Shown here: piece after piece, positions 40,701 to 62,828 of the stretch
Layout: each line of letters opens with the position of its first letter
How positions within the stretch are numbered: the stretch's first letter is position 1
Assembly: GCA_964016885.1 (NCBI GenBank)
Contig: OZ024745.1
Location: 49,662,001 to 49,726,000 of the forward strand
DNA: 64,000 nucleotides
Origin: Eledone cirrhosa
Taxonomy: Eukaryota
Reading direction: 5' to 3'
Notes under the pieces: model-generated
What the model saw: only the letters and a program-made list of their open reading frames with translations
The model's database searches: none
Told to the model about the DNA's origin: nothing
Made by a program: the position numbers and the translations under genes

Positions 40701-42130
40701 AGTAAGGAATGTGCCCATGTTTCCGTGACTGTGATGAAGTCAGGGTCGATGCTTCTGACGTAGGATTCGAACAGATGTATCTTGTTGCATAAACTGCGAG
40801 CATTTAAGGACAACAATTTGTACCCTGCTCGCAGTTTATGATGGTGTGTAGAGGGTGGCAGGTTGTTCTGGTTTAGTTTCCCAGAGTTGTAGCAGTTTTT
40901 ACATTGCCAGTTATTGTGGGTAGATCACACTCAGACCAGCTGGTATCTCTCTTCCACGTTTCACCAGCCTTGACAAACCTCCAGATCTGCCCATCATCAC
41001 GCAGACCGAAACTTTCATCTTGTGCTGAGTTCCGATTCAAGGAAGCTGCAGCACGTAGCTTTGGACGTACATGGGGTGGTAGGCCTGGGCGTGTTCGGAA
41101 GGTAATCCGATTTTCACGCCCAGCTTTAGCAGAGGCCAGATGATATGAGGTTGCCTCTGCGGGGTCCGAGAAAGACAGCCTGATGAGTCTGGGTTTTGGA
41201 CCAGGTCGACCAAGGCGGAGAGCACCCTTTGGGGGAACACAGCCTAGGTCTTTGGCTGAGCTGGCAGCAAATGCCTGAAGATCAGCCTTGTCCTCTGGTA
41301 CCCCAATGGCAATCACTTCATGGGTAGCAGATTCCGCAGTCTTTTCAGTCTTTTCAGCAAGAGGTACAGGGAGATTCTTTAGCAAGGCATTCCGATAAGA
41401 CCCCTCATTGTGGGGTCCTACCCGAATGCCTGCCTTTATTCCTGCAACTTCCCTTCTCAGAGCAGAAATCATTAGTTGCAGTTCCGCAAAATCTGTACTG
41501 GTCGGTTGTTGTTGTTGCTGCTGCTGCTGTCGTTGGTGATGATGATGTTCCTCCACGGGAATGGCAGGGAAGGACACAGTCGCAGGTTGTTGCTGTTGTT
41601 GTTGTTGTTGGTGATGATGATGTTCCTCCACGGGAATGGTAGGGGAAGACACAGTCACCAGTTGTTGGTGTCGAGATGTACTGGGAGTGGAAGACATGGG
41701 TTGTTGTTGTTTCTGATGTTCTCCCACAGGAATAGCAGTAGAAGCCAGTGTCATAGGTTTTTGCCGTTGTTCAGTAACAATGGTAGAGGAAGACACAGTC
41801 ATTGGTTTTTGTTGTTGTTGTTTTTCAATAACATTAGTGGAGGCAGGCACACAGGCCAGGCACTGAAAGGACCAGGATTTTAGCTGGACCATCTCCCATA
41901 TTCCATCCATCATAGCATTATGATGTCTCTTTTTTGGGCCTGGGATCCTCCGGAAGCCTGTGGCGCATTGAAGGCAGACAGAGATGTGACAGGTTCCACA
42001 TTCGACCCAGCGATTACGGAACGAGTTTTCGGGTTCCGCACAGATATGGCAGATGTGATTTTCTGGGCAATGTTCTATTTTGGGACATCGACCGGTTTTG
42101 TCGCAAATTTCATCGATGAAAAAAAAAAAT
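37765..42130 (-). mobile_element. Near-full-length CR1-clade LINE (ORF1 + ORF2), one TAG in ORF2 at 38882-38884
   Basis: ORF1 with PHD finger and coiled coil; ORF2 APE (NARSL, VTETW, YRPP, GDFN, SDH) + RT (YLDFAKAF, GVPQGSVLGP, YADD) + CR1 C-terminus (VRPHLEF, VQRRATK, NTRGH, WNKLP); ~130-bp duplicated 3'UTR. Confidence 0.93.
40873..42120 (-). CDS. CR1 ORF1 protein (PHD finger, Q/H-rich repeats, coiled coil, RRM-like); true start unclear
   Basis: CHIC..WVECGTCHISVCLQC..FQCLAC; LMISALRREVAGIKA; IAIGVPED; LRLGR..KPRLIRLSF. Confidence 0.8.
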   Translation of the reverse strand, partial: FIDEICDKTGRCPKIEHCPENHICHICAEPENSFRNRWVECGTCHISVCLQCATGFRRIPGPKKRHHNAMMDGIWEMVQLKSWSFQCLACVPASTNVIEKQQQQKPMTVSSSTIVTEQRQKPMTLASTAIPVGEHQKQQQPMSSTPSTSRHQQLVTVSSPTIPVEEHHHHQQQQQQQQPATVSFPAIPVEEHHHHQRQQQQQQQQPTSTDFAELQLMISALRREVAGIKAGIRVGPHNEGSYRNALLKNLPVPLAEKTEKTAESATHEVIAIGVPEDKADLQAFAASSAKDLGCVPPKGALRLGRPGPKPRLIRLSFSDPAEATSYHLASAKAGRENRITFRTRPGLPPHVRPKLRAAASLNRNSAQDESFGLRDDGQIWRFVKAGETWKRDTSWSECDLPTITGNVKTATTLGN

Positions 42131-42534
42131 ATTATTGAAAGTTTATTATAAAGAAGCAGTATCAGGGAAAAAAAAACAAAAAAAAACACGTTATTTCGCT
42201 GTTAATAAACAACTGCCTTCTACAGTACGTTTCATTTAACTTACGCAGCATATTTATTTGTTTACATGCACAGACTCTTCTACACACACACAACATTTAG
42301 GAAAACGGAAACAAAATACACAAAAAAACATACATTTTATTTCTATCGTAATCAAGTGCGCTAAACCTATATTGTTTACATTCTGTGTTTTTCTACGGAT
42401 GGGTAGAAATAACAAAATTGCCATGGGTAATTGCTGGCCTTGTGCCAAAAATAGAAATAATTATTAAGGTTAAAAAGTGAGTCTTATTACTCTGGAGTTT
42501 CGCCTGTTACAAGAGGCAATTTTTACTCTTAATA

Positions 42535-45017: not shown

Positions 45018-45087
45018 TGACGTCATTAAGCTAGAGTAGATACGATAGAAAACAACATTGAACTAATATTGATCTGAAAATATAAAA
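45018..45087 (+). promoter_or_regulatory. Candidate promoter of the ELL-like gene: palindromic CRE (TGACGTCA, 45018-45025) and TATA-like TATAAAA (45081-45087)
   Basis: Motifs start 121 and 58 nt upstream of the ATG; motif match only. Confidence 0.4.
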
Positions 45088-45138: not shown

Positions 45139-46308
45139 ATGTCAACATTAGAAAAACATCCTCTCTATAACATGTCAACTTCTTGTGAAGACGATAAGAC
45201 TATCATACACGCAATTTTTACGGAGTGCATTTTAGGAAAACTGCAAGACTTTTTTAGAAAAGCAACAGGAAATTGTCCTCACCCAACTATTAAAGTATAT
45301 AACGATGGTACGGGTTTTATTCAAATTCCTGTATATCCTTCTGGGACGAACGGTGAACTATATACATTTAATTTTAATGTATATTGCGTACAAGATAAAC
45401 CCAAGGATGTTTTTTATTGTCTCCAGCAAGTGCTGTCAAAAAATGAAAACTGCATTAACTCTTTAGGGTGCATCGCTTATAAAATAGTCATGCGGGGAAC
45501 TGGTGATTCATTTAAAGAATTCAGAAAAAGAATGTACGTGGAAGATGCAAAAAAGGTATTTACGAAAGAGATTCATCCGTCAAAGAATCTTAAATACAAG
45601 AAATTTCTCTCGCATCCGGATAATGAGGTTTCGTATTTTAACGCATCTATCTATGATGAATGGAATGATCGGGCCTTAATATCAAACAATTTATATGCAG
45701 AATCTTCATTTCCACTCAGTAACGGTTTGCCTATTCCCCCTTACTTCAGGAAACTATCATTACGAAAGAGAATTATTCATTTGTTGGCTCTTCGGCCATA
45801 TAACAAGTGTGAATTACTTCGATTATTGAAAAGGCATGGCTTTTCTGAAAATGATAAAAAATCCTTTGAATTTAAATTAAGCGAAGTATCTACGTATTAT
45901 AAACGACAGCGATTTACTTTAAGTAGTCCGGCTTGGAATGAAGTTGATGCTACATGGCCGTATTATAGAGTGGAACAACAACAACTTGTGAGAAGACGAC
46001 TAAACTCAATGCATTGTGGTGACTCGGATTGTACAGGAAAATGTTTTCATTCCGCTGATTTTGAAATTCTGGAAAACAAGTCTAATTCTAATAATTATCC
46101 CAATAAAAAGCGAAAATTTCTACAATCAACTTTAGGTCATGAAACTAAATATATAAGAAGATTCAAGGAGAGGTGTCGTCCAAATATTTTGAATAGTGTT
46201 GAGAAGCATAACCACAGTATTTCTGATAATCCTTCATTTTTTCAATCAGTTAAACATATGAGAGTACCAGTCTCTGAAACAGCAGAAAGCAAGCATAAAA
46301 GTAAGTAA
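45139..46308 (+). CDS. ELL: ELL-family RNA polymerase II elongation factor, N-terminal and winged-helix-like central domains only; probably an exon ending at 46300
   Basis: Colinear with ELL: HPTIKV..GFIQIP..TFNFNV..DKPKDVFYCLQQ..SLGCIAYKIVMRGTGDSF..RKRM; LRKRIIHLLALRPYNKCELLRLLKRHG; EVDATWPYY..QQQLVRRRL; no C-terminal occludin/ELL domain; GTAAGT at 46301. Confidence 0.88.
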   Translation: MSTLEKHPLYNMSTSCEDDKTIIHAIFTECILGKLQDFFRKATGNCPHPTIKVYNDGTGFIQIPVYPSGTNGELYTFNFNVYCVQDKPKDVFYCLQQVLSKNENCINSLGCIAYKIVMRGTGDSFKEFRKRMYVEDAKKVFTKEIHPSKNLKYKKFLSHPDNEVSYFNASIYDEWNDRALISNNLYAESSFPLSNGLPIPPYFRKLSLRKRIIHLLALRPYNKCELLRLLKRHGFSENDKKSFEFKLSEVSTYYKRQRFTLSSPAWNEVDATWPYYRVEQQQLVRRRLNSMHCGDSDCTGKCFHSADFEILENKSNSNNYPNKKRKFLQSTLGHETKYIRRFKERCRPNILNSVEKHNHSISDNPSFFQSVKHMRVPVSETAESKHKSK

Positions 46309-47269
46309 AAGTTGTATGTATGGAGTCGTAGGGGCGCCGTAGTGACATATGTAGTGCGTATTTAAAACCTGTTGAAGCCATTCTCTCTCCAAGTGTGAAC
46401 ACAGTCGATTTCGCCCAGAGAAGTAAAAAGAGAGGGGAAATGAGAAATAAATATAGAGAAAGAATCGACCTCAGTAAATGACTGGCACTTTTTTTCGACC
46501 ACGAAAAGATAAAAAGCAAAGTAGACCTCGACAGGATTTGAATTCAAAGCGAAGAGAGCCGGATCGAATACCGCATTACATTCTAGCCGACATTCTAATG
46601 ACTGCCAAATTGCCGCCAAGTAAAAGTTGGTGTTTCTCTAAAAATGAAAATAACAATTCCTAACATATACACTAGGTCAGACATTTTGGAAGAGAGATTA
46701 GTGGTTAAATCGACCCCAATAGTCGACTGTCTACCAACTTCCATTCATAAGGCATTTGTCAACTCGAAGCCGTTGTAGAAGACACTTGACCGAGGTGATG
46801 TGCAATGGGACTGAACGCAAAACCACGTGGATTGCGAAGTGAACTCCTTAACTACACAGGCATGCCTACGCCTATCTGGAAAAAAAAGGACTGTGATAAT
46901 TGGTACACCTTTTATCTCAGGTTTGTACAATCAGGGATGAACAAAAAATTTTATTACAATTGTATAAATTACAGTATATTAGATTTTATTAAATTAAATA
47001 ACGTAACAAATGGGAGTGAAAATATGAACACATGATATATGCAAAGCATATAAATAAATTTACAGTAGAATAACATAACACATGTTTTAAATATATACAT
47101 AAATAACATTACAAATGCTTAGATAACATTATAAATTGCTCGCGATTCTTTCAGAAGGATATATTCCTTTAATGATGCAATATTAAAGAAAATATAAAGG
47201 AAGGGGTGAACAATGGAGCCAACACCAGAGCAAAAGACAGCAGCTTCGCGAGGAGTACTGGGCAACCTC

Positions 47270-48400
47270 TCCAATGATTATTGAGGCAAGCCAGCACACG
47301 CGCAGCGTTGCCTCGGGTGATGGCGAGGGGAATGCGCTGGAACAAACAAGCGCCCTCGCGAGATTCGCCAGTTACCTCTATTAGGCGAGCCGCCAGTGAA
47401 GAGAGGAACCTCGCAGTCAGCGGCCCGACTCCCCCAGACGTCTCGAAAGCCACAGGCTGAAAAATGTAGCTGGCCGACAGATCACAGTATCTGAGGAAGC
47501 TGTGACTCTCGTCCTAATCGCAGCATCCAGGATGTGGGAAGAAGCAAATGAGACAGTAGAATACCGTTGGAAATATGTTTTAAATATATACATAAAAAAC
47601 AACAAATGCGTTAATAACACCAAAAATTGTTCGCAATTCGTTCAGAAGGACAATATGTCTAAACCGTGTATAATAACACAATAATTTAAATTCAAAAACA
47701 AAAATGATAAAAGAAGGAAAAAAAGTGGGTGGGGGGATTCATCCCAAGTATGACAATCTGCAGCACCTATCACCTTGGGGATTAACTGCACTCTTTCAAG
47801 CAAGCCAACACGCTCGCAGAATTACCACGGGTGATGGCGAGGCTAAGGCGCCAGTGAAGACAAGAACTTTGCTGTCAGCGGCCCAACCTCACCGAACGTC
47901 TCGAACGCCACAGGCTGGGGGAAATAATTGTTTAATAAGTCCTGGTATATCCGAATTTTATTCCGGTCGGCAGCGGAAGCAGTGACCCCCACATTCACCG
48001 CGGCGTCCATGATATGGGAGGGGGGGAAAGAGTCACTGACTGTGACGTCCCAGATGAAACCTACCTCTCACTCAGGGACAAAGGGTAAGACCGTCTGGTA
48101 TCTTCCCATCATGGCTCCAGAACTGTGGGGATATTAAAACAAGCCAGGGCCCGTTTGATGATCAGGTTTAGCTCGGAGTGACAGGCGAAACGACCAGCAT
48201 TCAGGCGGTAAGACAAACCATGTAAACCCATGGAGTCGAGGGACCTACTACAGCGGCATCTCAGATCCCCCTCAGACGTTGGCTCCCACACGAAGTGTAA
48301 TGGAGATGTGGGGTTCGTCCTGACTGAGAAGGCCACCAATTTTGGCCACAGGCAGGGCATCAATCCAGTCCCCGAGAACTCTGCGTTAGCAGAAAGTAAA
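47270..48400 (-). mobile_element. Two decayed CRE-clade 3' fragments (47270-47560, 47790-48400)
   Basis: AFETSGGVGP..REGACLFQRIPLAITRGNA; CRCSRSLDSMGLHGLS..HSELNLIIKRAL..EP. Confidence 0.75.
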
Positions 48401-49733
48401 GAGGCTGTATAACAGTAACAACTTGTCCAATACAATCATTAACGTCTTTGTAGCAAAAAAAAAAAAATAATAATACAAAAACAAAACAAATTTTAGAATC
48501 TATAAATGTAAATTAAAAATATTTAGCACTGAAACCAATCACTTTAATAACAAAAAACTTTTGAATCAGGCCATGCCCTAACAGCCTAACACATTACCCA
48601 GTTTAACTTCTTTTAACACTTGGTTGAAATTTTTAATTAATCTTAAATTCCAGGGTTGTCTCCCTTGTTGTTGTTTTTTTTTTTTAACCATAATTAATAA
48701 TTACGATAAAGATTTTTTTTTACTCATCACTCCTGGTGTAATTTCAATTAATTAAAATTTCTTACCTCACTTGTCTTTTTGTATATAAAGGACAAAGAAA
48801 CCACTACCCTTCTGTATTCAAAATGACCAGGTGCGCGGGGGAAGGAGGTTTGAAAGCTGTTTTTCAGAACAGTCGAGCGAATGTTAGAAGCTCGTTAGTT
48901 GGTCAGGTTTTTGTAATTTAGTCAGAGGAAAAGGGACAGAACTCATGATATTACTGGGTCTTCCTAACTGGTGAGGTTGATTTTCAGCATGAACATCTGT
49001 ATAATAGGTGCACTACAAGAAGTCAAAATATTGATTTCTAACTCTATTTTAGGTAAATTTATAAAACATTACTCACAAAGGAATTTTTCCCCCGGATAAC
49101 GAAGGAAGAGGAGGATCTTCAGATCCCCACTCTCCCGAGTTCTCTTTACCAATTATTTTTTTATTTCCCGTATGTTATCCACAAATCTCACTTATAGACC
49201 AGTCGGAGACGATTAGCTTTGTAGAAAAAGGATGAGGAAAGAGGGAAAACCCTTGGAGTTTCGCAGATTTACATTTCTCTTGCCTCTGGTAGAAATTTTT
49301 TTTTTTATAGGGTTTTTTTTTTTTTTCGCATGTTATTACAAATCTAACCTCCAAACACCCTAACACTACCCGAGCCCTAAACCTATCCTAACCCTTCCGA
49401 CATTTGTCATGCGATGCGGTTTACTAAAAAGTAAATAATTCCAAACGGTTTTGATTGAAAATCAGATTTGGTGAAAACATCAAAATACGCAGGAAAAAAT
49501 ATTTCAGCTCCAACGCGAAACGGTTCTAATTATAGAAAATATTTCGTCACCCCACACGAATAACTACCGAGTGTTTTGAAGATCAGATTAGTTGATGACA
49601 CACAAAAATAATATTGTAAAGAATACAAGAAAACTCTAAGTGTGGGGGAGGGGATACGTGAGAAAGTCCAAGCCTCCCTCCATTTTCCAGAAGGAAAAGT
49701 CCTTTGTGGCATACTCAGAGGTTAAATTAGTTG

Positions 49734-49766
<33 letters not shown>

Positions 49767-50054
49767 CAGGAAAAATAATTATTTCCCACTGAAATCGCGA
49801 GGGGTGTTTTATAATAATACCCTATTCTATCCACCCCAGAAAGATGAAAGCATAGTTGCCCTCGGCGGGATTTGAACTTAGAACGTAACTAAATACTGCG
49901 GGGAATTTTGTCCATTTTTTTTTTTTTTTAATATTATAATGCTGGTGCAACTATGGAAAAGGCGAAAGGAATGGAAGAAACTGGTTGCCAGGTCATCTGT
50001 GGCGCCCCAACGGTCCACCAGACTACGGGATAGATGAGAGGGATGAGAGAAATT

Positions 50055-50235
50055 ATAATTGTTTCTACTTTTCGCACAAGGCCAGCAAATACCCAGTACA
50101 TTACTGGTACTTTATTTTATCGACCCCGTAAGGATGAAAGGCAAAGTTAACCTCGGCGGGATTTGAACTCAGAATGGCAAGGGCCGTAACTCTATGCGTC
50201 AAAGCATGGCGTCCCACCCGCTACCGATACTGCCA
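50055..50235 (-). mobile_element. tRNA-derived SINE
   Basis: Same family as 1178-1362. Confidence 0.85.
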
Positions 50236-50384
50236 GGATGTGTGACCGGTAGATAGTATCAATAATGCAAACATTTCCTTGGTCCGATTTGACGAGTTCC
50301 AATCCACTCGGGAAGCGAATTAGGTTTGTGATCTTGTCGATCGAACTGTATATTATGTCATTCACATTTAGAATGCAGTGGCGT

Positions 50385-50564
50385 TCAAGACGTTTGGTGG
50401 AGTTGCGCCGCCTACAAGCGAAGTCCTTGTCATCATTGGCGGCTCACCTTACTGAGGTGTCAGGAGATGCCCGTGAGGGTGCCTGGTTATTTCAGCTTCT
50501 TAGCCTCGCCATCACCCGCGGTAATGCTGCGAGCGTGTTGGCTTGTCTCAAAGTGTGTAGTTAA
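50385..50564 (+). mobile_element. CRE-clade 3' fragment
   Basis: SGDAREGAWLFQLLSLAITRGNAASVLACL. Confidence 0.7.
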
Positions 50565-51277
50565 TCCCTAAGGTGTGTGGTGCGGTCGATTATCGCACTT
50601 GGTGGTGAATGCCCCCCCCCCCCCCCCCCCCCTTATCGTTATTGTTCAATAAATTACATTCTTTGACTTTCATCCTTACGGGGTCGATAAAATAAAGTAC
50701 CAGCAATGCACTGGATAATTGCTGGCCTTGTGCCTAACGTAGAAACAATTATATTTTTATACACCTTGATAAAATAAAAAGGTCGCTTATAGGAGTATCA
50801 AATCGGCTTATTTGAGAGGTACCTTATTTTTTTTTTTTTTAATCTTAGAAGAATGAAAGATGAAGATGACTATGGCGCGATTTGAATTCAACACGTAAAA
50901 GGCTATAACTAGATCCTACTGAGAATTTTGTCCGACGCTCTAACGAATTTGACAATTCACTGCTCCAAAATATTTCCGAAAAGAGCCTAAACGTGATTGG
51001 GATACATAAGAGTTGTTTCTCTTTAATATTGAAACTCTTCAATGTCTACTATTTCCATGTCCCACACTAGAGTCTGTTGACATTTTCTCTCAACTTGTAG
51101 TTTTTACCCCATTGAACAGATTTTTCGACATCTCTAATATTCACATGCATGCGAATGCATTTATTTATACACATATATCTCCATCGATAGATAACGTTGA
51201 TTCTTTCATTTTCTGTTATTGTTGTAAATAACTTATTTATTTTAGTGTGGTCCTTCTCAACTCTATCCAGTCTCGTC

Positions 51278-51362
51278 ATGGCAGAAGACAACAGTGTTCT
51301 TGAACTTAGACTTGGAGCAAGCTTTGACCCGAATCCCAGAGTTGCTTTCCATTCTGTCAGAT
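51278..51362 (+). CDS. EAF: EAF coding exon 1 (MAEDNSVLELRLGASFDPNPRVAFHSVR-Y)
   Basis: Matches EAF1/2 LRLGESF..FHTIRY; acceptor TTTAG at 51245; donor GTAAGT, phase 1. Confidence 0.9.
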
Positions 51363-52664
51363 GTAAGTACTAAAGCTTCTTTGCGTGTATTTATTTTATA
51401 TTCACCTCTTTATTCATATTGCACTGGGGTAATTGCTGGCCTTGTGCCAAAAGTAGAAACAATTATTTCGAGTGTTCCAAATCCTACCTCGATTGATTTT
51501 ACCTTTCATCCTTTTGAGTGATCAATAAAGTAAAGTATCGGTAGAAGTACTGGACAAGGGTTGTCGTCTGTATAAATAACCATATCCCTTCTCCAAAGAT
51601 GTGTGGCTTTGTACCTATGTTAGAAATAGCACTATTTCAAATGTTTCAGTAATAACACTTGGCCTATGATTAATTATGATCGTTGAAGTGTGAAAGTACA
51701 AGATAATTATGGAACATATTCACTAAATACGCTTCCTTTAACTGACATTTATAGTTTAACAACAACAAAATAAATAAATAAGCTAGTTTATTATCAATTC
51801 AATTAATCCCATTCTTTTGTGTCACAACGGCGCCCTTACGATTCCATCAACATATGATACGGTTCTATTGTGTGTGTAGTATTTAATTACTGAATTTATA
51901 TTCCACCTACAAACGTGTGGAATTGAATCGGAAACCTTATATGGTAACAAGTCGGCTCTAATCGAACCGACCTATGATCAAAGGTTTTTCCAGTTGTAAC
52001 CATCCCGACCATCCAGTGCTTCCTTCTTTGTTGGGTTATAATAGTTATATTTTTTCTTGCATGTGTTGGCATTGTCCTACATTTAACAGATTCTATGAAA
52101 GTGTAATTTCCAGACATTAAAAAGTAAAAAATTACTGCCTCTTCGCCCCCCTCTCACTCTCATATATAATGAAAATTGCAATTAACAGACACTATTATAT
52201 GTAATGAAACATCATTTAATTATGAAAATCACAGTCAAAATAAAAAAATAAAAACTTAAATGTAATGGAAATTCACGTTTCGTTGGCAATGTACGGAAAT
52301 AAACAGAAAATCACTACGTCTGTATTGTAGTATCGTATATACACGAAATAAGTACATTTCGTAATTCTAAATAAAGACAGTTTCCCTTCCCACACAAACA
52401 ATAAGTGAGTTTCGATTTTCCGTCTGTAAATTTTATTTTCACTTTAATAGAACCCTCAAATAGGACTATAGATCTATGCTTGACTTTATCGCATATCGAA
52501 ATTAGTTGGTAAACACTACTTTATAGTTACACACAAACGCACACACAACTTTGTATCCTGCTTTCATTTCTCATTTTCATGCGTACAAAGAATTAATTCT
52601 GTTTAAGAAATCTTCGCCGCCATATGTTTAATTGAGATTATCCATGTTGTTTTGTGTCCGATAT

Positions 52665-52785
52665 ATACAGGATATCCCCCCCCCCCCCAAAAAAAAAATG
52701 TATGCACACTTTGATTATCAGTACAGGCAATATTTATTAGAATGCTGTTGAAGTATGTATACATTTTTGGAGGACACTCTGTGTA
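52665..52785. mobile_element. Small Tc1/mariner-type MITE
   Basis: Imperfect TIRs CAGGATATCCC..AAAAATGTATGCACACTT / AAGTATGTATACATTTTTGGAGGACACTCTG in TA context. Confidence 0.45.
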
Positions 52786-52806
52786 TATATATATATATAT
52801 ATACAC

Positions 52807-52851
<45 letters not shown>

Positions 52852-53014
52852 TGCGTAACAAAGTATCACTAAATTTGTGGATCCTGGTTGGTGGTGGCAG
52901 TGTATCTGAAAATAATAGGAATATATATATCCAGTTTAAAAAAAACTGAAGTAAGAGGTTTTGGGATGAGAAATTTAATGAAAGCAAAGCGAAATAAATA
53001 TAGTATGTGTGTGT

Positions 53015-53160
53015 ATTTTATTCTTTTACTTGTTTCAGTCAGTAGATTGCGGCCATGCTGGACCACCGTCATGATTTTGTCAATCATAATCGACTCCATT
53101 ACTTATAATTTGAAGTTTAGTACTTATTTTAGCGATCACTTTTTGTCGAACCGCTAACTC
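53015..53160 (-). mobile_element. SINE 3' part sharing its tail with the 21232-24137 LINE
   Basis: Minus strand GACGGTGGTCCAGCATGGCCGCAATCTACTGACTGAAACAAGTAAAAG. Confidence 0.7.
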
Positions 53161-54336
53161 GTGTGTGACACACACATATCATCATCACCGTTTAACGTAC
53201 ATTTTCCACGCTAGCATGGGTTAGACGAGTTGTCCCGCTGTGAGACAAGTCAGGTCTGATGACCATGCCTTGCTCATATAGAACTGGTTTTGGCTTGGTT
53301 TCTACGGCTGGATGCCCTTCTTAAAGCCAACTACATTTACAGTGAGTGCTGGGTGCTTTTTGTCATGACACCTATATAGTCCTGCCTGTAATGTGGTATT
53401 GGTAGTGCCACAAAAAACTTCCAGTACATGCTGAAATGTGGTTGGCATTAAGAAGGGCATCCAGCCTTAGAAAATCAAGCCAAAACGGATTGTATCAGCA
53501 AGACCTGATCTGTCTACCTTCATAACATGACAGCCTGTCTAACCAATACAAGCATGGAAAATATTAGTCAGTGAAAGAAGTAACTACAGAGGCATAAAAC
53601 TGTTGGATCAAGTTATGAAAGTGGTGGAAAGAGTGACATCACAACTAATTAGGGAAAGAGTCAAATTAGATAAAATGCAGTTCCATTTTTGCCAAGAAAT
53701 AACAACACAGATGCTCTCAGTGACTTTCGTAAACCTTGTGTGTATATATATATATAAATCAGGATGGATTCAGTTTGAAACTGGTTAGACCATTACTCAC
53801 CACTCGATACTTGGAGTAGTAGAGTATGGTTATATTATAAAGAATTTATGGGTGACTTTCACTAAAAACAGATAAATACATAAAATATTAGGACTAGAAA
53901 TAAATAGACAACAGACCTAGGACCTTATTAATACAAAATCATTATAAAATGTGCAAGAAGTTAATGTTGGAAAAATTCAAGGTTTTATCAAAGGAATCTG
54001 GTTGATTCTAATGGATGAAAGACAGAGGGATAGGCAGAAAAGGGGGAAAGAAGAAAATGAGTGTGTGGAATATATATATATAAAGTCATCATCATCATCA
54101 TCATTTTACGTCTGCTTTTCTTTGCTTGCAAGGGTGGGACTAAAAAAATCTCACGAGACGGATCATCATATATATATTCGTGTCTGTTTACATCTGGTAA
54201 TTTAGAGGGTTGATAAAAAGATATCAATAAAATAAGTATCCGGTTTGAAAAAATAAGTACTGGTGTCTTAATATTAATAAATAAAAGCTTCCATCAGTTT
54301 GTTATGTAATCTGTAGTCTTTTGCTGTTTATTTCAG

Positions 54337-54431
54337 ATGATTTTAAACCAGCATCTGTTGATGTAACTAAAGAAGCTGCTCTAGAAGTTGGTGAGAAGAA
54401 CCAAGTTACGATAACTGTGCCACATATTGAG
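54337..54431 (+). CDS. EAF: EAF exon 2 (DFKPASVDVTKEAALEVGEKNQVTITVPHIE)
   Basis: YDFKPAS signature; AG/GT boundaries; phase 1 to 0. Confidence 0.95.
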
Positions 54432-55564
54432 GTAAGTTACGATTTGAAAGCCAGTGTTATTAGGACTGTTTGGTGGAGAATTTCCATTTTATTTTTGTAG
54501 TCTAGTGTTGTTACTATGCTGCCAAAGATCAAACTAACTGCCCACTGCATTCTCATAATTATCAGTTTTTCCAAGCTGGTATGTCTTGGACAAGACATTT
54601 GTGGCAGAATGCTACTGCCAGATGCCTTTCCTGATGTCATCTCTCACTTGTTTGGGTTTTTTTTTTTTATAAAGCAAAGTATATAACGTTATTTACTATA
54701 GTTTGTGTGACTGATTTAAAAAACAACTCACTTTGATCATACTCCATGGTTGTTAAGAGTGCAACAAGCTTGTAAAAGTGATCAATGAGATACCCACCCA
54801 CTCTCTTTGTCTCCTGCCTAGTTCAGTGGCTCCCAAACTCTGTGCCACAGCATATTGGTGCATGATAATGTGATTAGATGCACCATGAGATGTAATTAAG
54901 TGCACTGCAAAAAAGCAAGTTTCAATTTCAAAATGTGTTAAATATAGATTGAAATTCATAATAAAGTTCATATGTAACTGTCAAAGTAAGGAAACAACTA
55001 AACTAAGAATGAAAACATTGCCAAGTGCATGTTTCTCATTGATAACTTTTCTCCATTTATTGACTAAAGAAAGAAGTACAAATAATTTTTCTGAATTTTA
55101 ATTATCTATATTTCTACTTTATGCTATGCTAAGATGTATAAATACTTCTTTTGAATGAATTTTCGAATTTAGGTACAAAATGTACCAAGATATTTTTTAC
55201 TTGTTCTAAAGTGCACCATGAATAAAAAAAAAATTAAACTACAGAAGGAACAGGCTAGAATCAGCAAGAAAAGAAGATACTGTTTAGTTTGACTCTTGTC
55301 TGGTTCTTTGAGAGCTTATGGAAGGCAGTAGTGAATAAGCCAAATCCCTCACATACAAGCAGGGTAAAATGGGATGTAAAATAGTTAACAAAGTAAATAG
55401 ATTATAGAATAGGTGCAGGCTTGTCTGTGGTTAAGTGGTTCATTTCACAATCATATGATCTCGGCTTTTATTGCACTGCATGTCATTTGTCTTCTGTAGC
55501 TTTAGGCCAATCAGTGTCTTGTGAGTAAATTTAGTAGATGGATACTCTAAGGGAGCATATCATC

Positions 55565-55750
55565 TTCATCTTGGCAGTATTGGTAGAGGGTCGGACGCTA
55601 TGCTTTGACGCATAGAGTTACGGCCCTTGCCATTCTGAGTTCGAATCCTGCCGAAGTTAACTTTGCCTTTCATCCTTACGGGGGTCGATAAAATAAAGTA
55701 CCAGTAATGCACTGGGTAATTGCTGATCTTGAGCCAAAAAGTAGAAAGAA
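55565..55750 (+). mobile_element. tRNA-derived SINE in an EAF intron
   Basis: TGGCAGTATTGG...GAGTTCGAATCC; same family as 1178-1362. Confidence 0.85.
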
Positions 55751-55821
55751 TTATTTCATGTCTGCTTTCCATGTTTTCTTTCTCTCCCTTGCCTTCTCTC
55801 TCTCTCCCCATCTCTCTCTTT

Positions 55822-55875
<54 letters not shown>

Positions 55876-56126
55876 TATGTATGTGTCTGTGTGTTTATCT
55901 CTCTCTTCTCTTTGCATTCAGCATCATAGGCAGTGATATTTGTTTATGTTTCATGTAAATGGAGGCCCTGAAGCTCAGCAGTTTGTCGTACAAAGATCAT
56001 ACCTTACAAAACAAGTGAGCTTAGACCTGCCTCAGAAAGTCTCATCCAGTTCATGCCAGACACAAAACTGATGCTGATTTTGTTAAGAAATTACTCATTG
56101 GGAGTTTATTTTCCATTCTTCTTCAG

Positions 56127-56263
56127 AGTTCAGGTACAACACACACTGTGTATAAAGGAAATAAAAGGATGTGCCCTAAAGAGTGTGTTCTTATTATTGA
56201 TAATGCCACTGGATCTGTTACATTGGAAAAACTCTCAAACACCATACAAGTGAAGAAAACTAG
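56127..56263 (+). CDS. EAF: EAF exon 3 ([46 protein letters not shown])
   Basis: Matches TVFKGNKRP..KDCVLII..TG..LEKLSS.IQVKKTR; phase 0 to 2. Confidence 0.95.
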
Positions 56264-57321
56264 GTAAGTACAACTTAACCTTTTCATTAACATAGTTCTA
56301 ATGAAAAGACATTGCCTACATTTTTCAAATATTGAAAATAATTAAGAATTAGGAGAAATTTAGTAATGTTGTTAACTTTCTTATTATTAAGCTAGTGTAT
56401 AAAATTATGATGGAAAGTTTTTAGATAAATACTAGACCACCTGTAACCCAACGGGTCATGGGTAGTCTAGTAATATATATGTATATAGAGGGTTATAATA
56501 TATAGAAAGAGAGGGGGTTATAATGTATAGAGAGAGTGTTATTGGTTATCATGGAGCTGTTGGCTATTTATGAAGGTACCTGGAAAAACTCTGTATCTTG
56601 GGAATTTATGCTCCAATTTACGTGAAATTTGTTTTATTCCATTTGTATTCCCATTTCAGGGGCAACCTCCTTTCAAAGTATTTTCCTATTATGTGCCGTT
56701 TTGGCTGTATTACATTACAGACAAGCACATAACCACAGAGTTTTAGTAGTATATAAATAAACATTTGTATCATAGAACCAAGAGCAGTGTCAGGCAGTTT
56801 AGTGTCAAAGGGATTAACTGCATGTAAAGCTGGATGCCACCCCAACGGTTGAGCAACATGTAGCTCCACCTTCCTCCTCTCTTCACTACTTCACACCATC
56901 TAGGCCAAGGATACAATGAGCCCCTAAATGCCATAATGAAGTTGTGCTGGTGCCACAACAAAAAGCACCTATAAAGTCGTAATACTAATGTTATGACAGA
57001 AAGTACTCAATTCACCTTGTAATGTGGTAGTGCTAGTGCCACAAAAATGGTTCCAGTTCACACTCTAAAGTGGTTGGCATTAGGAAGGGCATCCAGCTGT
57101 AGTAACCAAACCAAAAAACAGAACGTGACAATCTGTTTAACCCATGCAAGTATGGGAAATAGACATTAAACAGTGATGATACATCATCATCATCCACTTT
57201 CCCTGCTAGCAAGGGGTGGACACATATATATGTGTTAATTGAAGATGATGATAAATATCGTCTGTTATCTCTACTAGCAAGGGTTGGCTGGGTCATCACA
57301 GATCAAGTCAGTACCCACCTC

Positions 57322-57548
57322 TTAACCCTTTAATGTTCAAACCGGCCAAAACCAGCCAGAATTCTCTACCTCTTTCTGTTGAAACTGGCTGTAACTGGCC
57401 ACTCATATTGATGTTAAGGTATTGTTCTCAAAATAAATACTTTCAAAATCTCATAGATTCGATATTATGTGACATATTATGCGAGGTAAAGCCTATACCA
57501 TGAAAATATAATAGTATATATAGTGTAATGTGAATGTTAAAGGGTTAA
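57322..57548. mobile_element. piggyBac-type MITE with TTAA target duplication
   Basis: TTAA-CCCTTTAATGTTCA ... TGAATGTTAAAGGG-TTAA. Confidence 0.7.
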
Positions 57549-57599
57549 ACAGGTGGTGGGGAATGCACTTTTCGTTTGTATACCTTTCCACACTACAGA

Positions 57600-57630
<31 letters not shown>

Positions 57631-57789
57631 CATATATATATAAATATTCATATACATATACATTTGTCCCACCCTTGCAAGCAGGGAAAAAGCGGACGTA
57701 AAATGATGATGATGATGATGATGATGATGATACATACACAGACTCACATATATAAATATATATATATTTTTCTTTTTTAAATCTTTTAG

Positions 57790-57956
57790 AGCTGAAGGGT
57801 CTAGTCGTCTTTCTATGCGACCGCTCACTCCTGTTGACAGCAGTAAAATGAAAACATCACCTCCAAAAAGTGGCAAAATGTCTCAACACAGTCCGTCTTC
57901 CTTTAAAGAGTGCTCTCCAGCTTTGACTCCAGTTGAACCTGCTGAAAACAACAGGG
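57790..57956 (+). CDS. EAF: EAF exon 4 (AEGSSRLSMRPLTP...PAENNR)
   Basis: RAEGSS motif; phase 2 to 1. Confidence 0.92.
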
Positions 57957-59165
57957 GTAAGTAATTTAAGGTGGTCATGCTGGTGACACAATAGAAAGCC
58001 CCTAGTCCACCCTGTATGACCGGTTTGGCATTATGAAAAGCATTCAGCTATAGAAACCAAGCCAAAATACAAATATTTATGAACAAGTGGTCAGCTGACC
58101 CCACATATGTCTTAACATGACACATATATATATAGTTTGGGATAAGGTGATAAAGGCTGATCTCAGACAAGTTTGAAAAGATGAACACGTTCTCCCACAA
58201 TGCTGCTGAAGTGGCTAATGGTTAATAGCTCCCAGTCCACCCTGTAAGTTGGCCATGCTGGTGACACAACAAAACCATCCCGATACAGTGTGCAAGAGAG
58301 AAGACTCTATTGGTATGGACATGTGAGTGTATGGATGACAATCATTGGATGAAGACGTCCTAAAAGATGTTAGTGGAAGGTGGCTGCAGTAGAGGAAGAC
58401 CAAAAACAACTTCGGTAGAGGTGGTTAGAGCTGGTTTCAAAATGCTGAACCTCACAAAGGAATATGAATGGAAGCAGACCGCTGGAGAACCCATCCAATC
58501 CATGCAAGTATGGAAAAAGAGACATAAAATTATGATGATAATATATGTATATATATCATCATTTTTATATCTATTTTACATGCTTTAATGGGCTAAACAT
58601 GTCTTCTCTAGTACAGTATCTCACTACTTGCTTCTTTGTGAGATTCAGTTTCTTGAGATCAATTTTCACATTGCTCACATCCTTCTTGGTTTTCCTCTTC
58701 CACAGCTTCCTTCCACTACTCTTTGCCCTTTACATGACCTTACCAGTGTACACTTCTCTTTGGTACTCTACAGCTGGTTCCTCTTATGCCTAGTTTTTTT
58801 TCTCAACTCATCTGTGCTCTATCATTCATGCATATTAATATTTTACATCCAATGGAGTGTGTTTGCTTCATTTCTCTCTAGTATATATATCAATATTTTT
58901 TTGATTGATTTATTAATTGGTTGATATTAGTTGTATTAATTTCATTGATAACCCTAAGCGTTTTGTTCGATTATTGTGACCACACCACTAAATGAGTTTA
59001 TTCTGTTTCTGAAATTTATTTCAGTTATCATTACACTGCCATAGATACCTATATAAGTTTAACTGGCTTCCTATATGGTTGCATCTCATATGAGGTATCT
59101 CATGGACGCCTTCATATGATGATGATGATGATGGTGGTGGTGATGATTCAGGTTTTTTTTTCCAG

Positions 59166-59318
59166 ATAATGGTACCAGTTCTTTAAATGTGTGTGCTCCA
59201 GTAGCATTGACAGATAACATGTCGGAGAGCAGCAGTAGCAGTTCCTCATCAAGTGGCAGTGATGTATCGAGTGATTCAGAATCAGACAACTCTGATTCAG
59301 AGGCAGGGCATAACAAAA
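59166..59318 (+). CDS. EAF: EAF exon 5 (Ser/Asp/Glu-rich acidic region)
   Basis: MSESSSSSSSSSGSDVSSDSESDNSDSE; CAG/GTAAGT; phase 1 to 1. Confidence 0.9.
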
Positions 59319-60449
59319 GTAAGTATTACTTAAAAAATTTATTGTTTAAAGATTTGTACTTTTTTTTTTTTTGTAAACATAGTTATAGGTATGGCTGAAT
59401 TGTTAAGGAGTGTTTTCTGCTATTATCTTGAGTCCATGTGTTGACCAATACAGTGTGAGTGAAATTTAGTAGATAAAAACTACAGAAGTCCATCATATAT
59501 ATGTCTGGGGTTGGCTGTGTGATTAAAGAGCTTACTTCACAAACATGGTTCTGAGTTCAGTCCTGCTGCATAGCACCTATCATTTCAGATTTCAGATGAT
59601 GCAATGCTTTTTAAGTGACATTTGTGTCTGTGATAATTTTACATTACTTGGTTGTTCAACAAAAAAGAGACCGTTAAAATAAGTACCAAACTAGAAATAC
59701 TAAGTACTGAGTTGATATCGTTGAATAAGTCCATTTAAGGCACTACTCTAGCATAGCTGCATTCAAGTGACTGAAACTAGTAGAAGGCTGGAAGAATATT
59801 CACATACATTCACAAAGTAAAAACATTTTATATTAACTATTAATAGACATTTGCCATTAATATCAATGGTAATAGTGTTGAACATATTTAATTTTTGGAG
59901 TCCTGAATTGGTATGTTATATATACCAGGTTTACTGGAATAGTATATAATAACTAGTTATCCAGTGCCATCAATAATGACGGCAATCACGGTGAACATAT
60001 TCAATTTTTAGAGTTTGGGATTGGTATGTCATATATACAAGGAAAACCAGGTACATGGTTCAACTTGGGAAATTTGCGTTTTGATAAATTAATGGTTTGC
60101 ATGAAAGAAATCTTATAGTTTATGTTGATTAATGACAAGGGGAAGTGATTAATGATAAGAATTATATTTTAATAATTTAGTTCTAGCATGTAATTATACA
60201 AAATATTCAGCATATATGTATAAATGACATACAGGATTCAATGTCTAAGTAACTTTGGAGAATAACTATTTCCAAAGACAAATATACGGTTAGGACCCAG
60301 TGCCTTGTGACAGGAAAGCAAAATTCTCATTGTAGCAACATGACTGAGGTAGGAAACACGTTGCATATATGATTGTGTGAATTTTAAAGAGTTACACACA
60401 CATATATATAACACACACACATATATATATATATATATTGTTTACTCGA

Positions 60450-61046
60450 GAGAAGACTACGTTGGTACGGTCACGTGATGCGCATGAAAGACGACAGTTG
60501 TATAAAAAAGTGCAGGGCGATAAAAATAGACGGTAGCCATGGGGTAGGCAGACCCAGAAAAACCTGGGACGACTTGATAAATTCCGACCTCACACACTTA
60601 CACTTCTCCAAGACAATGTCACTGGATCGAGATCTTTGGCGCTACACAGTAATACAGAAGACCCGCCTTGCCTAAGTACAAAGCGAAACCTACAGTCAGT
60701 AGGCACCTCTAACAAAAATACACCCCTGTCCCACTATCCCCACCCCATCCACACCACTCCTTTCAATGTAAAGTTATGTTGGTACCACAACATCCAGTCC
60801 GAAACAAATGAGGTCGTGTAGGTGTCACAACAAAAAAACACAGTCCATGCTGTAATGTGGCCGTGTAGGTAACACGGTAAAAACCTCCCAGTCCACACTG
60901 TAAACGTGGTTGGTGTTAGGAAGGGCATCCAGCCGTAGAAAACCCGCCAGACAATACAAGACAAACAATCTTGCCTCAAGTGGGAAAATTCCTGTCCAAA
61001 CCCATGCAAGCGTGGAAGATGGATGTTAAACGATGATGATGATGAT
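60450..61046 (+). mobile_element. RTE LINE 3' fragment in an EAF intron
   Basis: LRWYGHVMRMKDDSCIKKCR..GRPRKTW; (GAT)n tail. Confidence 0.88.
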
Positions 61047-61145
61047 ATATACAAACAAACACACATGGCATGTTATTTTGCTTGATTTTACTCTTGCCAA
61101 TAATTATGCTATCTTCCTTACATTTTTTTACTTTTCTTACACTAG

Positions 61146-61193
61146 ATACTTCTGCTCCCTGTGAAGTTCCATCAAAAGACCTTTGTACATTAA
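61146..61193 (+). CDS. EAF: EAF exon 6 (TSAPCEVPSKDLCTL)
   Basis: Pyrimidine tract + TAG acceptor, GTAAGT donor, 48 nt, phase 1 to 1. Confidence 0.75.
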   Translation: MLLLPVKFHQKTFVH

Positions 61194-62454
61194 GTAAGTA
61201 TCATTTACACCTGTGTTCCCATTTCTTCATTACAGCTTTAGTAATATAAACTTGGTCAACATTTAACTCTGTTTGCTTCTTCTTTATGTCTTATTGGCAG
61301 CAGTGGTATATTTGTACAGTTCTCAATATTAAATTGTAGAAGAAACAGAGGACATGTGGACTTCATAAATTGCAGTGAAGGCAGTCCATTTAAACAATAA
61401 CTGCAAACTACTCAAGTGCCAGTGGCACAAGAAAATATATCCTGTTCATATTGTAACACAGCAAACTCATCAACAATGATTTTTTATTTTACTTAGTAGG
61501 TCCAGGGCAGCTTCTGTGATCATCACATACCTTTTGAGACTAGAGAGAGGGTGATGTGGTTGATGTTCTGTTTAAACTGGTGCAAGTCCACCTTTTTAGT
61601 TTTAGAAAGTCATAAGTAGGGAAGGAGTTCCATAAACCCAACTTTACTTCCTGGGCGAGAAAGACTTGGCAGAATAGTTAAAGGCTTGAGCGTTTGGACA
61701 CAATTTGAGTACTGAAAGGAGGAGAGTTGAGAGTACCTGAATGGAAGGGACATGAACTCAACAAGCTCTAATGAGCAGATACCACTGTACTAATGGTACA
61801 AGTGGAAAAGGGAGTAGGTGGCACAACTAAGTGAAAGGCTGGAGAATGTCAATGTATCACTTTATGTCAACTGGCAGTTTTCTCTTCTGTTATGTGCATT
61901 AAATGATAATGGAATGTGACAAATAGCAAAACACTCGTGACAGCATGAAAAAAATGGTCATAAAATGATGATGATGACTATTATTATTATCATTTTTATT
62001 GGTTGTTAAGGGTGATGGATTAGCAGAATTTTTAGAGTATCTGACAAATGCTTTGCAGCATTTAGTTACAGTCCTTTACATTCTGATTTCAAATCCTGTC
62101 AAGGCCAAATTTGCCTTTCACCCTTCTGGGGTCAATAAAATAAAGTACCAATCAAGAACTAGGGTCAAAATAATTGACTTTTCTCTTCTGCCTGAATTAC
62201 TGGCCTTGTGCCTGTTTGAAACAATTATTGATGGTTGTTAAATAAGGACACTGAACCTTGAAAACGTGTGAATTTATTAAATTTGAAGACATTTTATTAA
62301 TAATTAATTGATATTAAGTTTTTGTTATGTTCAACAACAACAACAATCAAATATAACATATAAAATATAGAAAACAAAAGAAGAAAATACTGATACAGTT
62401 GCATGTCATGCCCTCTTTATGAATGTCCTTTCACACCAACGTCTACAATATGAC

Positions 62455-62560
62455 GGTATGTGGCTTAGTGGTTAGAATACTGGATTTATGATCATAAGGT
62501 CATAGGTTCAATTCCTGGATTTGTGTTCTTGAGCAAGACACTTCATTTCAGGTTGTTGTT
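62455..62560 (+). mobile_element. tRNA-head SINE (CORE-like); related copy at 63085-63350
   Basis: TGGCTTAGTGG...GGTTCAATTCC then GTGTTCTTGAGCAAGACACTT. Confidence 0.65.
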
Positions 62561-62784
62561 CATGATAGGACTGGGACCTCTATCATTAAAACACCCAAGA
62601 AACTTCCTATGAGATACAACTCCATTGAAGAACAGCTAAACCTGGATAGGTGTAAGCTGCAAATTTCATTTAATTTCTTTTCCTAACAATGTGAACTCCC
62701 CAACTCCAACTTCTCATTCTCTTTTCCAGCTGGAATAGTATGTCTCATTGTTGTTTATTTTTCATTCTTGTTTCTATTTTCAAG

Positions 62785-62828
62785 GTGAAGACTTACATTT
62801 GAGTGAATCAGGCAGTGATAGTGAATGA
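62785..62828 (+). CDS. EAF: EAF last coding exon (SEDLHLSESGSDSE*); total CDS 729 nt, 242 aa
   Basis: Matches the conserved EAF C-terminal DLQLSESGSDSD; AATAAA at 63033-63038. Confidence 0.92.

What the first reader, a model, noticed from the sequence alone, without database searches (positions are those of the whole stretch)
45139..62828. Predicted in-frame ELL-EAF fusion: elongation factor and its cofactor on one transcript
Seen: the ELL-like frame ends 8 nt into a perfect donor (AAA|GTAAGT, 46300/46301), leaving phase 1. The acceptor of the first EAF coding exon (TTTATTTTAG|51246) gives A+TG TGG TCC TTC TCA ACT CTA TCC AGT CTC GTC ATG, in frame and stop-free into MAEDNSV. The product would be ~640 aa (387 ELL + 11 linker + 242 EAF). 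Skipping to EAF exon 2 (also phase 1) is in frame too. I see no ELL C-terminal (occludin-like) exon in the intervening 5 kb, much of which is SINE/CRE debris. Known: EAF binds the ELL N-terminal domain in the super elongation complex. Inference: a covalently tethered ELL-EAF heterodimer lacking the ELL C-terminal domain, made by read-through splicing. Frame compatibility alone has about a 1 in 3 chance.
Basis: partly seen in the sequence, partly recalled or inferred. Interest (0 to 1): 0.85.

Follow-up and report, generated by a model that had tools for sequence, protein, structure and literature searches.

The report
Octopus ELL retrocopy joined to EAF
In octopuses an intron-less copy of the transcription-elongation gene ELL sits just upstream of the gene for its binding partner EAF, with splice signals that would join the two into one protein, likely a ready-made polymerase booster that lacks ELL's usual docking domain for the super elongation complex, though no RNA was available to show the join.

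Summary
Window 45139-46308 is an intronless 389-aa ELL-like frame ending 8 nt into a GTAAGT donor; joining it to the acceptor at 51246 gives a stop-free 640-aa ELL-EAF product. The genome holds a multi-exon ELL with the occludin domain 54 Mb away, and six located parental introns are absent from the copy. The copy is kept under constraint (winged helix 84-90% identical across octopods). Automated gene models of three Octopus species carry the same junction. An unspliced ORF from a further unnamed octopus contig keeps the donor letters but not the stop. Argonauta has both genes adjacent but annotated apart. No other ELL-EAF fusion turned up among 360 homologues examined. Against: the models are not independent, a second donor at 49053 could serve an EAF-only exon, and the N-terminal domain keeps only 18 of 35 family-conserved residues. 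The join itself is untested at RNA level. Best reading: an octopod chimeric retrogene tethering a diverged ELL to its partner, lacking the AFF-binding domain (about 0.6).

The parts
45139..46300 (+). ELL-like retrocopy exon (387 codons + 1 nt): N-terminal dimerisation domain aa ~1-140, winged helix aa ~203-290, fast-evolving tail aa 291-387
   Evidence: Pfam ELL E=5.3e-41; parental introns absent; model of aa 1-160 matches ELL2 chain 7okx_M, E=1.1e-8, TM 0.68/0.77; identity by region
46301..46308 (+). Predicted 5' splice site GTAAGT (phase 1), overlapping the stop TAA (46306-46308) of the unspliced frame
   Evidence: same position implied in P0001/P0003/P0005/P0007 models and in read-through ORF P0006
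46301..51245 (+). Predicted 4945-nt intron, largely repeats; only short stretches look single-copy (about 48535-49075 and the last ~290 nt)
   Evidence: depth profile; own-genome DNA searches
48868..49052 (+). Candidate alternative non-coding exon (donor TAG|GTAAAT at 49053, second-best donor of the region; stops in all three frames). It could be an EAF-only 5' UTR exon; unproven
51246..51277 (+). 32-nt segment before the EAF ATG; the 11-codon linker in the fusion frame
   Evidence: same length and 8 of 10 residues identical to the O. bimaculoides model
51278..51362 (+). EAF coding exon 1 (from ATG)
   Evidence: 97-98% identity of EAF aa 1-105 to P0007 and P0126
54337..54431 (+). EAF exon 2
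56127..56263 (+). EAF exon 3 (the only PF09816 match in the genome)
57790..57956 (+). EAF exon 4
59166..59318 (+). EAF exon 5 (Ser/Asp/Glu-rich)
61146..61193 (+). EAF exon 6
62785..62828 (+). EAF last coding exon to the stop
45018..45025 (.). TGACGTCA palindrome about 115 nt upstream of the ELL-like ATG; possible CREB/CREM-type promoter site (label recalled; hint only)
   Evidence: one of 2 such sites in the window

Best explanation
An intronless, diverged copy of ELL lies 5 kb upstream of the EAF gene in octopods and is likely spliced in frame onto EAF's first coding exon, giving a predicted 640-aa chimeric protein in which the ELL N-terminal and winged-helix domains are tethered to full-length EAF. 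Shown: retrocopy anatomy, intact and constrained frame, frame-compatible splice sites, the same junction in gene models of three Octopus species, no occludin domain. Inferred: an ELL mRNA was retroposed 5' of EAF (perhaps into its first non-coding exon) in an octopod ancestor, lost its 3' part, evolved fast and then stabilised. The ~108-residue tail plus linker would let the EAF barrel fold back onto the ELL N-terminal domain. The product would bind RNA polymerase II as a pre-assembled ELL-EAF unit but, lacking the occludin domain that binds AFF1/4, would not be recruited through that contact into the super elongation complex. It would thus be a scaffold-independent elongation stimulator, probably tissue-restricted (germline is a guess). 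Free EAF for the parental ELL would come from a downstream start site or a separate first exon.
For: Retrocopy: multi-exon ELL with occludin exons at G000:C5:103.856-103.924 Mb. Six parental intron positions were located directly within the aligned part, with a further small exon inferred in the 57-kb gap; the copy aligns across them with no intron. Tree of 20 rows: the 5 copies form a clade (100/100) that joins the 2 Octopus canonical ELLs (100/98) on a long stem of 2.24 changes per site (midpoint root, long-branch caution). Constraint: winged helix 84-90%, N-domain 66-77%, tail 47-62% identical to the 4 octopod homologues; a substitution-only neutral simulation kept the frame open in 3 of 2000 runs. 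Junction: XP_014781336.1 and A0A0L8GG99 (O. bimaculoides), XP_029655880.2 (O. sinensis, 644 aa) and CAI9717901.1 (O. vulgaris) all join ELL to EAF at the homologous point with an 11-residue stop-free linker. The unspliced Logan ORF P0006 reads R-K-Y there; this is compatible with C|GTAARTAY (back-translation, inferred), so donor letters are kept while the stop lies 35 codons later. No full-length stand-alone Octopus EAF among 63 short EAF hits. N-domain folds like ELL2 of the Pol II-ELL2-EAF1 structure. ELL2's occludin domain binds AFF4 (PMC5290273, passages); ELL2-EAF1 dimerisation domains bind the Pol II lobe (PMC10716050, passages); EAF raises ELL activity (PMC6212713, passages).
Against: All junction support is from automated models whose RNA support I could not see. 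Argonauta is annotated as two separate genes, the ELL-like one partial at 327 aa. The acceptor is moderate (rank 9 of 305) and a second strong donor at 49053 lies in single-copy DNA and could end an EAF-only exon. Polyadenylation-like hexamers follow the ELL stop (first AATAAA at 46446). Donor and linker conservation are each only modest odds: 5 inferred donor letters and a 32-nt segment can survive this divergence by chance. The N-domain keeps 18 of 35 family-conserved columns against 31 of 35 in O. sinensis ELL, and the family's K-L-T-D-S-A run is altered, so EAF or Pol II binding may have changed. EAF has one match in the genome, so free EAF must probably also be made. No tissue data were found, so 'tissue-restricted' is inference.
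Confidence: 0.6

Rival explanations
1. Two separate genes: a single-exon ELL retrogene ending at its own stop and polyadenylated nearby, and an EAF gene with its own non-coding first exon (for example 48868-49052) or promoter. The fused models are a gene-prediction artefact passed between annotations.
For: Argonauta annotated as two genes; second-best donor at 49053 in single-copy DNA; AATAAA 138 nt after the stop; annotation pipelines share protein evidence; moderate acceptor.
Against: The frame ends exactly on the region's only GTAAGT, in the right phase; the stop is not kept in P0006 whereas the donor letters appear to be; no stand-alone full-length Octopus EAF among 63 short hits; linker open and equal in length in all 4 species with a sequence.
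Confidence: 0.22
2. The junction is real but serves mainly EAF: the donor is EAF's ancestral 5' UTR donor, the retrocopy landed upstream and its frame runs through it. Most transcripts start inside the ELL-like exon and make free or slightly extended EAF (in-frame Met374); the full fusion is minor or incidental.
For: The tail (aa 291-387) has no detectable likeness to the parental region (809 of 2000 shuffles score as well); Met374 is in frame, is the last ATG before the donor and is kept in the Octopus proteins; the O. vulgaris model starts at internal Met132; EAF is single-copy; a cuttlefish-cluster EAF ORF has a pyrimidine-rich, acceptor-like run about 37 nt before the ATG (back-translation, weak).
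Against: The whole frame from Met1, including both folded domains, is under constraint and ends on this donor; any transcript of the intact copy that uses the donor makes the fusion.
Confidence: 0.1
3. The fusion is made but works as a decoy or redirector, not a stimulator: the drifted ELL part no longer activates Pol II, and the protein competes with the parental ELL-EAF pair or brings EAF to new targets through the conserved winged helix.
For: N-domain keeps 18 of 35 conserved columns while the winged helix keeps 22 of 27; long stem branch; no AFF-binding domain.
Against: The N-domain is still predicted to fold as the ELL dimerisation domain (pLDDT 78.7; the alignment was mostly canonical ELLs, which biases the model) and is 66-77% conserved among octopods.
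Confidence: 0.08

Closest known systems
ELL2-EAF1 heterodimer on Pol II (PDB 7OKX/7OKY; super elongation complex)
   Same: Both Pfam domains (PF10390, PF09816) are present in the predicted product (on the O. sinensis orthologue); best PDB sequence and fold matches are 7okx_M and 7okx_O.
   Different: Two genes and two chains in the known complex; here one predicted chain, no occludin domain (the AFF4-binding part, PMC5290273), and a diverged N-domain.
Chimeric retrogenes (jingwei, TRIM5-cyclophilin A; PMC5408686, passages)
   Same: An intronless retrocopy inserted at a resident multi-exon gene and predicted to be spliced to its exons in frame.
   Different: Here the retrocopy would be the 5' exon, and the host gene encodes the binding partner of the retrocopy's own parent; the spliced transcript is not yet shown.
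Public octopus gene models XP_029655880.2, XP_014781336.1, A0A0L8GG99, CAI9717901.1
   Same: Same junction and domain order.
   Different: Automated entries named 'uncharacterized', 'ELL-like', 'EAF1-like' or 'reverse transcriptase domain'; none of the 6 identifiers searched occurs in the paper library.
Vertebrate ELL3 (testis-enriched paralogue; recalled, not checked here)
   Same: An extra, diverged ELL paralogue beside the canonical gene.
   Different: ELL3 is, as recalled, multi-exon, keeps the occludin domain and is not fused to EAF; no expression data exist here for the octopus copy.

Membership tests
ELL family (canonical, SEC-competent) | PF10390 N-terminal plus winged-helix region | tested here: met
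   141.4 bits vs cut-off 22.9; fold match to 7okx_M; 2doa/2e5n winged-helix matches
ELL family (canonical, SEC-competent) | C-terminal occludin domain (PF07303) that binds AFF1/4 | tested here: not met
   PF07303 only at the parental locus; absent from P0007, present in P0197
ELL family (canonical, SEC-competent) | Family-conserved N-domain residues | tested here: inconclusive
   18 of 35 columns kept (canonical O. sinensis ELL 31 of 35); winged helix 22 of 27
ELL family (canonical, SEC-competent) | Binds EAF and stimulates Pol II elongation | not testable with these tools
   needs biochemistry
EAF family | PF09816 domain and acidic Ser-rich C-terminus | tested here: met
   102 of 105 and 103 of 105 identities to P0007 and P0126
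Functional retrogene | Parental introns lost, separate multi-exon parent present | tested here: met
   six located parental introns absent from the copy; parent 54 Mb away
Functional retrogene | Intact frame under purifying selection | tested here: met
   open in 5 octopod sequences with domain-biased identity; 3 of 2000 neutral runs stay open; no dN/dS, as no DNA of the other species was available
Functional retrogene | Poly(A) remnant and target-site duplication | not tested
   not expected to survive at about 40% protein identity to the parent
Chimeric retrogene | In-frame splice sites linking retrocopy and host exon | tested here: met
   homologous junction in models of 3 Octopus species
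Chimeric retrogene | Chimeric transcript or protein observed | not testable with these tools
   see Tried and rejected

The most novel reading that the evidence does not exclude
Octopods have built a natural single-chain ELL-EAF elongation factor: a retrocopy of ELL captured the gene of its own obligate partner as its 3' half and shed the AFF-binding domain, giving a Pol II stimulator that works outside the super elongation complex, made from the octopus's only EAF locus, possibly as its main annotated transcript.
Probability: 0.45. Interest if true: 0.85.

Novelty: new variant of a known kind. Interest (0 to 1): 0.68.

Why it matters
If real, it is a lineage-specific rewiring of core Pol II elongation machinery: a retrocopy fused to its parent's own binding partner. 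I found no such fusion outside Octopus in 360 homologues examined and no paper on it in the searches made. It would be a natural test of whether ELL-EAF can act apart from the AFF scaffold and P-TEFb, and a rare case of complex subunits being fused by retroposition. It is cheap to test with existing Octopus RNA-seq and Iso-Seq. If the join is false, an old, constrained octopod ELL retrogene without occludin domain beside EAF remains, and several public gene models need correcting.

Tried and rejected
RNA test: no RNA holder listed. The 3 runs offered (one sample) behaved as DNA, with contigs crossing exon-intron borders; no 46300-51246 joint was among the 15 joints shown (603 more not shown), which says nothing on splicing. 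Complex prediction of the ELL-like N-domain with Argonauta EAF: no verdict (median 0.32, mark 0.34, runs 0.08/0.32/0.37, 3 controls 0.00, alignments not used). Fold of the full O. sinensis fusion: mean pLDDT 45.5, pTM 0.27, only the winged helix confident; uninformative on intramolecular docking; a first 64-row alignment was discarded as misaligned. CpG argument: CpG is undepleted from the ELL exon to about 53 kb and depleted after it, which I first read as a separate EAF promoter near 49-51 kb; the control removed this, as the parental ELL stays undepleted for about 10 kb after its first exon. Tail versus parent: no similarity. Metagenome scan for related loci: 79 pattern matches, none confirmed. 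Bacterial promoter scan: irrelevant to this organism. Earlier findings: none in 3 look-ups. Supplements of PMC11202624, PMC9712504 and PMC9068888: no occurrence of the identifiers or names; they hold no full expression tables as text, and one file was unreadable; the 2015 O. bimaculoides genome paper was not held. Pseudogene reading rejected. Tandem duplicate or split of the only ELL gene rejected.
Full report
Observation. An intronless frame at 45139-46308 (389 aa) matches Pfam ELL over aa 15-288. Its last codons contain AAA|GTAAGT at 46300/46301 in phase 1, the only GTAAGT between 44400 and 51245; all six donors of the downstream EAF gene have the same hexamer. EAF has seven coding exons from 51246 to 62828, with the ATG at 51278. 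Joining donor to acceptor gives 640 aa without a stop; skipping to exon 2 gives 601 aa but cuts off the first 28 EAF residues. On a small matrix from 11 donors and 13 acceptors of this genome the donor ranks 1 of 344, the acceptor only 9 of 305. DNA contigs of 2 of 3 runs cover the ELL exon in one piece with one difference, so the frame is not an assembly slip, though these may be the source data.

What the ELL part is. It is not the animal's ELL gene. A family search of the own genome gave 6 matches: this frame, four exon-sized pieces at C5:103.856-103.919 Mb, and one non-significant hit. The two occludin-domain matches lie at that second locus. Six parental intron positions were located by their splice sites inside the region that aligns with the window frame, and a further small exon is inferred in the 57-kb first gap; the window frame runs through all of them without an intron. 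In a 20-row tree the five copies form a clade next to the two Octopus canonical ELLs, on a very long stem followed by short branches. This is a retrocopy that evolved fast and then stabilised. It is constrained: against four octopod homologues the winged helix is 84-90% identical, the N-domain 66-77%, the tail 47-62%; in a substitution-only simulation to 26% divergence 3 of 2000 frames stayed open. A model of aa 1-160 (pLDDT 78.7) matches ELL2 in the Pol II-ELL2-EAF1 structure (E=1.1e-8). But only 18 of 35 columns conserved in 58 canonical ELLs are kept in the N-domain, against 22 of 27 in the winged helix.

Evidence on the join. The homologue search returned 4 proteins among 1283 candidates, one bearing both ELL and EAF domains. 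Cluster look-up showed fused models in O. bimaculoides (XP_014781336.1, A0A0L8GG99), O. sinensis (XP_029655880.2, 644 aa) and O. vulgaris (CAI9717901.1, starting at internal Met132); all join at the homologous point with an 11-residue linker. An ORF called on unspliced contigs from an unnamed source (P0006) reads R-K-Y at the junction, which is what C|GTAARTAY would give, and then runs on for 35 codons of unrelated sequence: donor letters appear kept, the stop is not. This is a back-translation and gives modest odds. In Argonauta the ELL-like gene (partial, 327 aa) and EAF have consecutive accessions on a contig of the same length but are annotated apart. Among 63 short EAF hits at E<=1e-40 there is no full-length stand-alone Octopus EAF, only a C-terminal fragment adjacent to the fused model. 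The 2023 O. bimaculoides ELL is in the collection, but I saw no 2023 model of this locus in either form, which I cannot explain. Of 360 proteins held, 192 score for the EAF domain and 4 score for both domains, all Octopus; in the 120 of 121 long EAF hits listed, only P0003 carries both Pfam labels.

Limits. The models are automated and share evidence: the O. vulgaris pipeline combined Iso-Seq, RNA-seq, aligned UniProt proteomes including O. bimaculoides, and ab initio predictions (PMC10700109, passages). I could not see which evidence supports this intron. A second strong donor at 49053, in single-copy DNA, could end an EAF-only exon at 48868-49052, and AATAAA follows the ELL stop at 46446. 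EAF has one match in the genome, so the parental ELL probably needs free EAF from this locus as well. My CpG argument for a separate EAF promoter failed its control and is dropped.

Mechanism. From the literature: EAF raises ELL's stimulation of Pol II and AFF proteins scaffold the complex (PMC6212713, abstract and passages); ELL2-EAF1 dimerisation domains bind the Pol II lobe (PMC10716050, passages); ELL2's occludin domain binds AFF4 (PMC5290273, abstract and passages; its Fig. 1 legend also mentions a further ELL-binding site on AFF4, so loss of the occludin domain need not cut every contact); ELL binding stabilises EAF2 (PMC11586179, passages). Inference: the fusion keeps the parts that dimerise and contact Pol II, has about 108 residues between winged helix and EAF to allow folding back, and lacks the AFF-binding domain. 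The most likely product is a pre-assembled elongation stimulator acting outside the usual scaffold, from an upstream promoter that may be tissue-restricted (a TGACGTCA site lies 115 nt before the ATG; a hint only). I put the spliced ELL-to-EAF transcript at about 0.75 and this whole reading at about 0.6. Rivals: two separate genes with a propagated annotation error (0.22); a junction serving mainly as EAF's 5' UTR with starts inside the ELL exon (0.10); a decoy fusion (0.08). Under the second rival junction reads alone would not prove the protein, so 5'-complete reads are needed.

Comparison and novelty. It works like the ELL-EAF heterodimer but fails membership of canonical ELL (no occludin domain). 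It meets the sequence criteria of a functional retrogene and, at DNA level, of a chimeric retrogene such as jingwei or TRIM5-cyclophilin A (PMC5408686, passages); the transcript criterion is untested. Searches for ELL/EAF/fusion/octopus, for six identifiers, for cephalopod retrogenes and for the elongation complex in molluscs gave no paper on it (search listings); the library lacks most subscription journals, and expression tables in supplements that I could not see may bear on tissue pattern. Verdict: new variant of a known kind, present but unremarked in public annotation; interest 0.68, 0.85 if the single-chain factor is confirmed.

Noticed in passing
window 35986-37146 (-): Intronless 386-aa ORF with no Pfam match and no Atlas hit above 0.79, 8 kb upstream of the ELL-like frame and pointing away from it; possible orphan or second retrogene.
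   Followed up: partly
window 45018-45025: TGACGTCA palindrome about 115 nt before the ELL-like ATG; one of two in the window.
   Followed up: no
window 46258-46260: In-frame Met374, last ATG before the donor and kept in the Octopus proteins; a start site inside the exon would give a slightly extended EAF.
   Followed up: partly
P0191 (cuttlefish EAF cluster, unnamed contig): N-terminal extension with a run of Phe then N-F-R, which could be a pyrimidine tract and acceptor about 37 nt before the ATG; weak hint that coleoid EAF had a 5' UTR intron ancestrally.
   Followed up: no
G000:C5:103.8566-103.867 Mb (L012, L014): CpG stays undepleted for about 10 kb into intron 1 of the parental ELL before falling to 0.2-0.4; the window's EAF gene falls at about 53 kb.
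   Followed up: yes
window 47035-47560 and about 47845-48400: Two copies of one repeat family, one 84-93% and one 65-70% identical to other genomic copies.
   Followed up: partly
window 38051-42201 (-): Near-complete LINE: a 441-aa frame with a Cys/His-rich start and Gln runs, followed by endonuclease and reverse-transcriptase-like frames broken by a stop (labels from reading the sequence).
   Followed up: no
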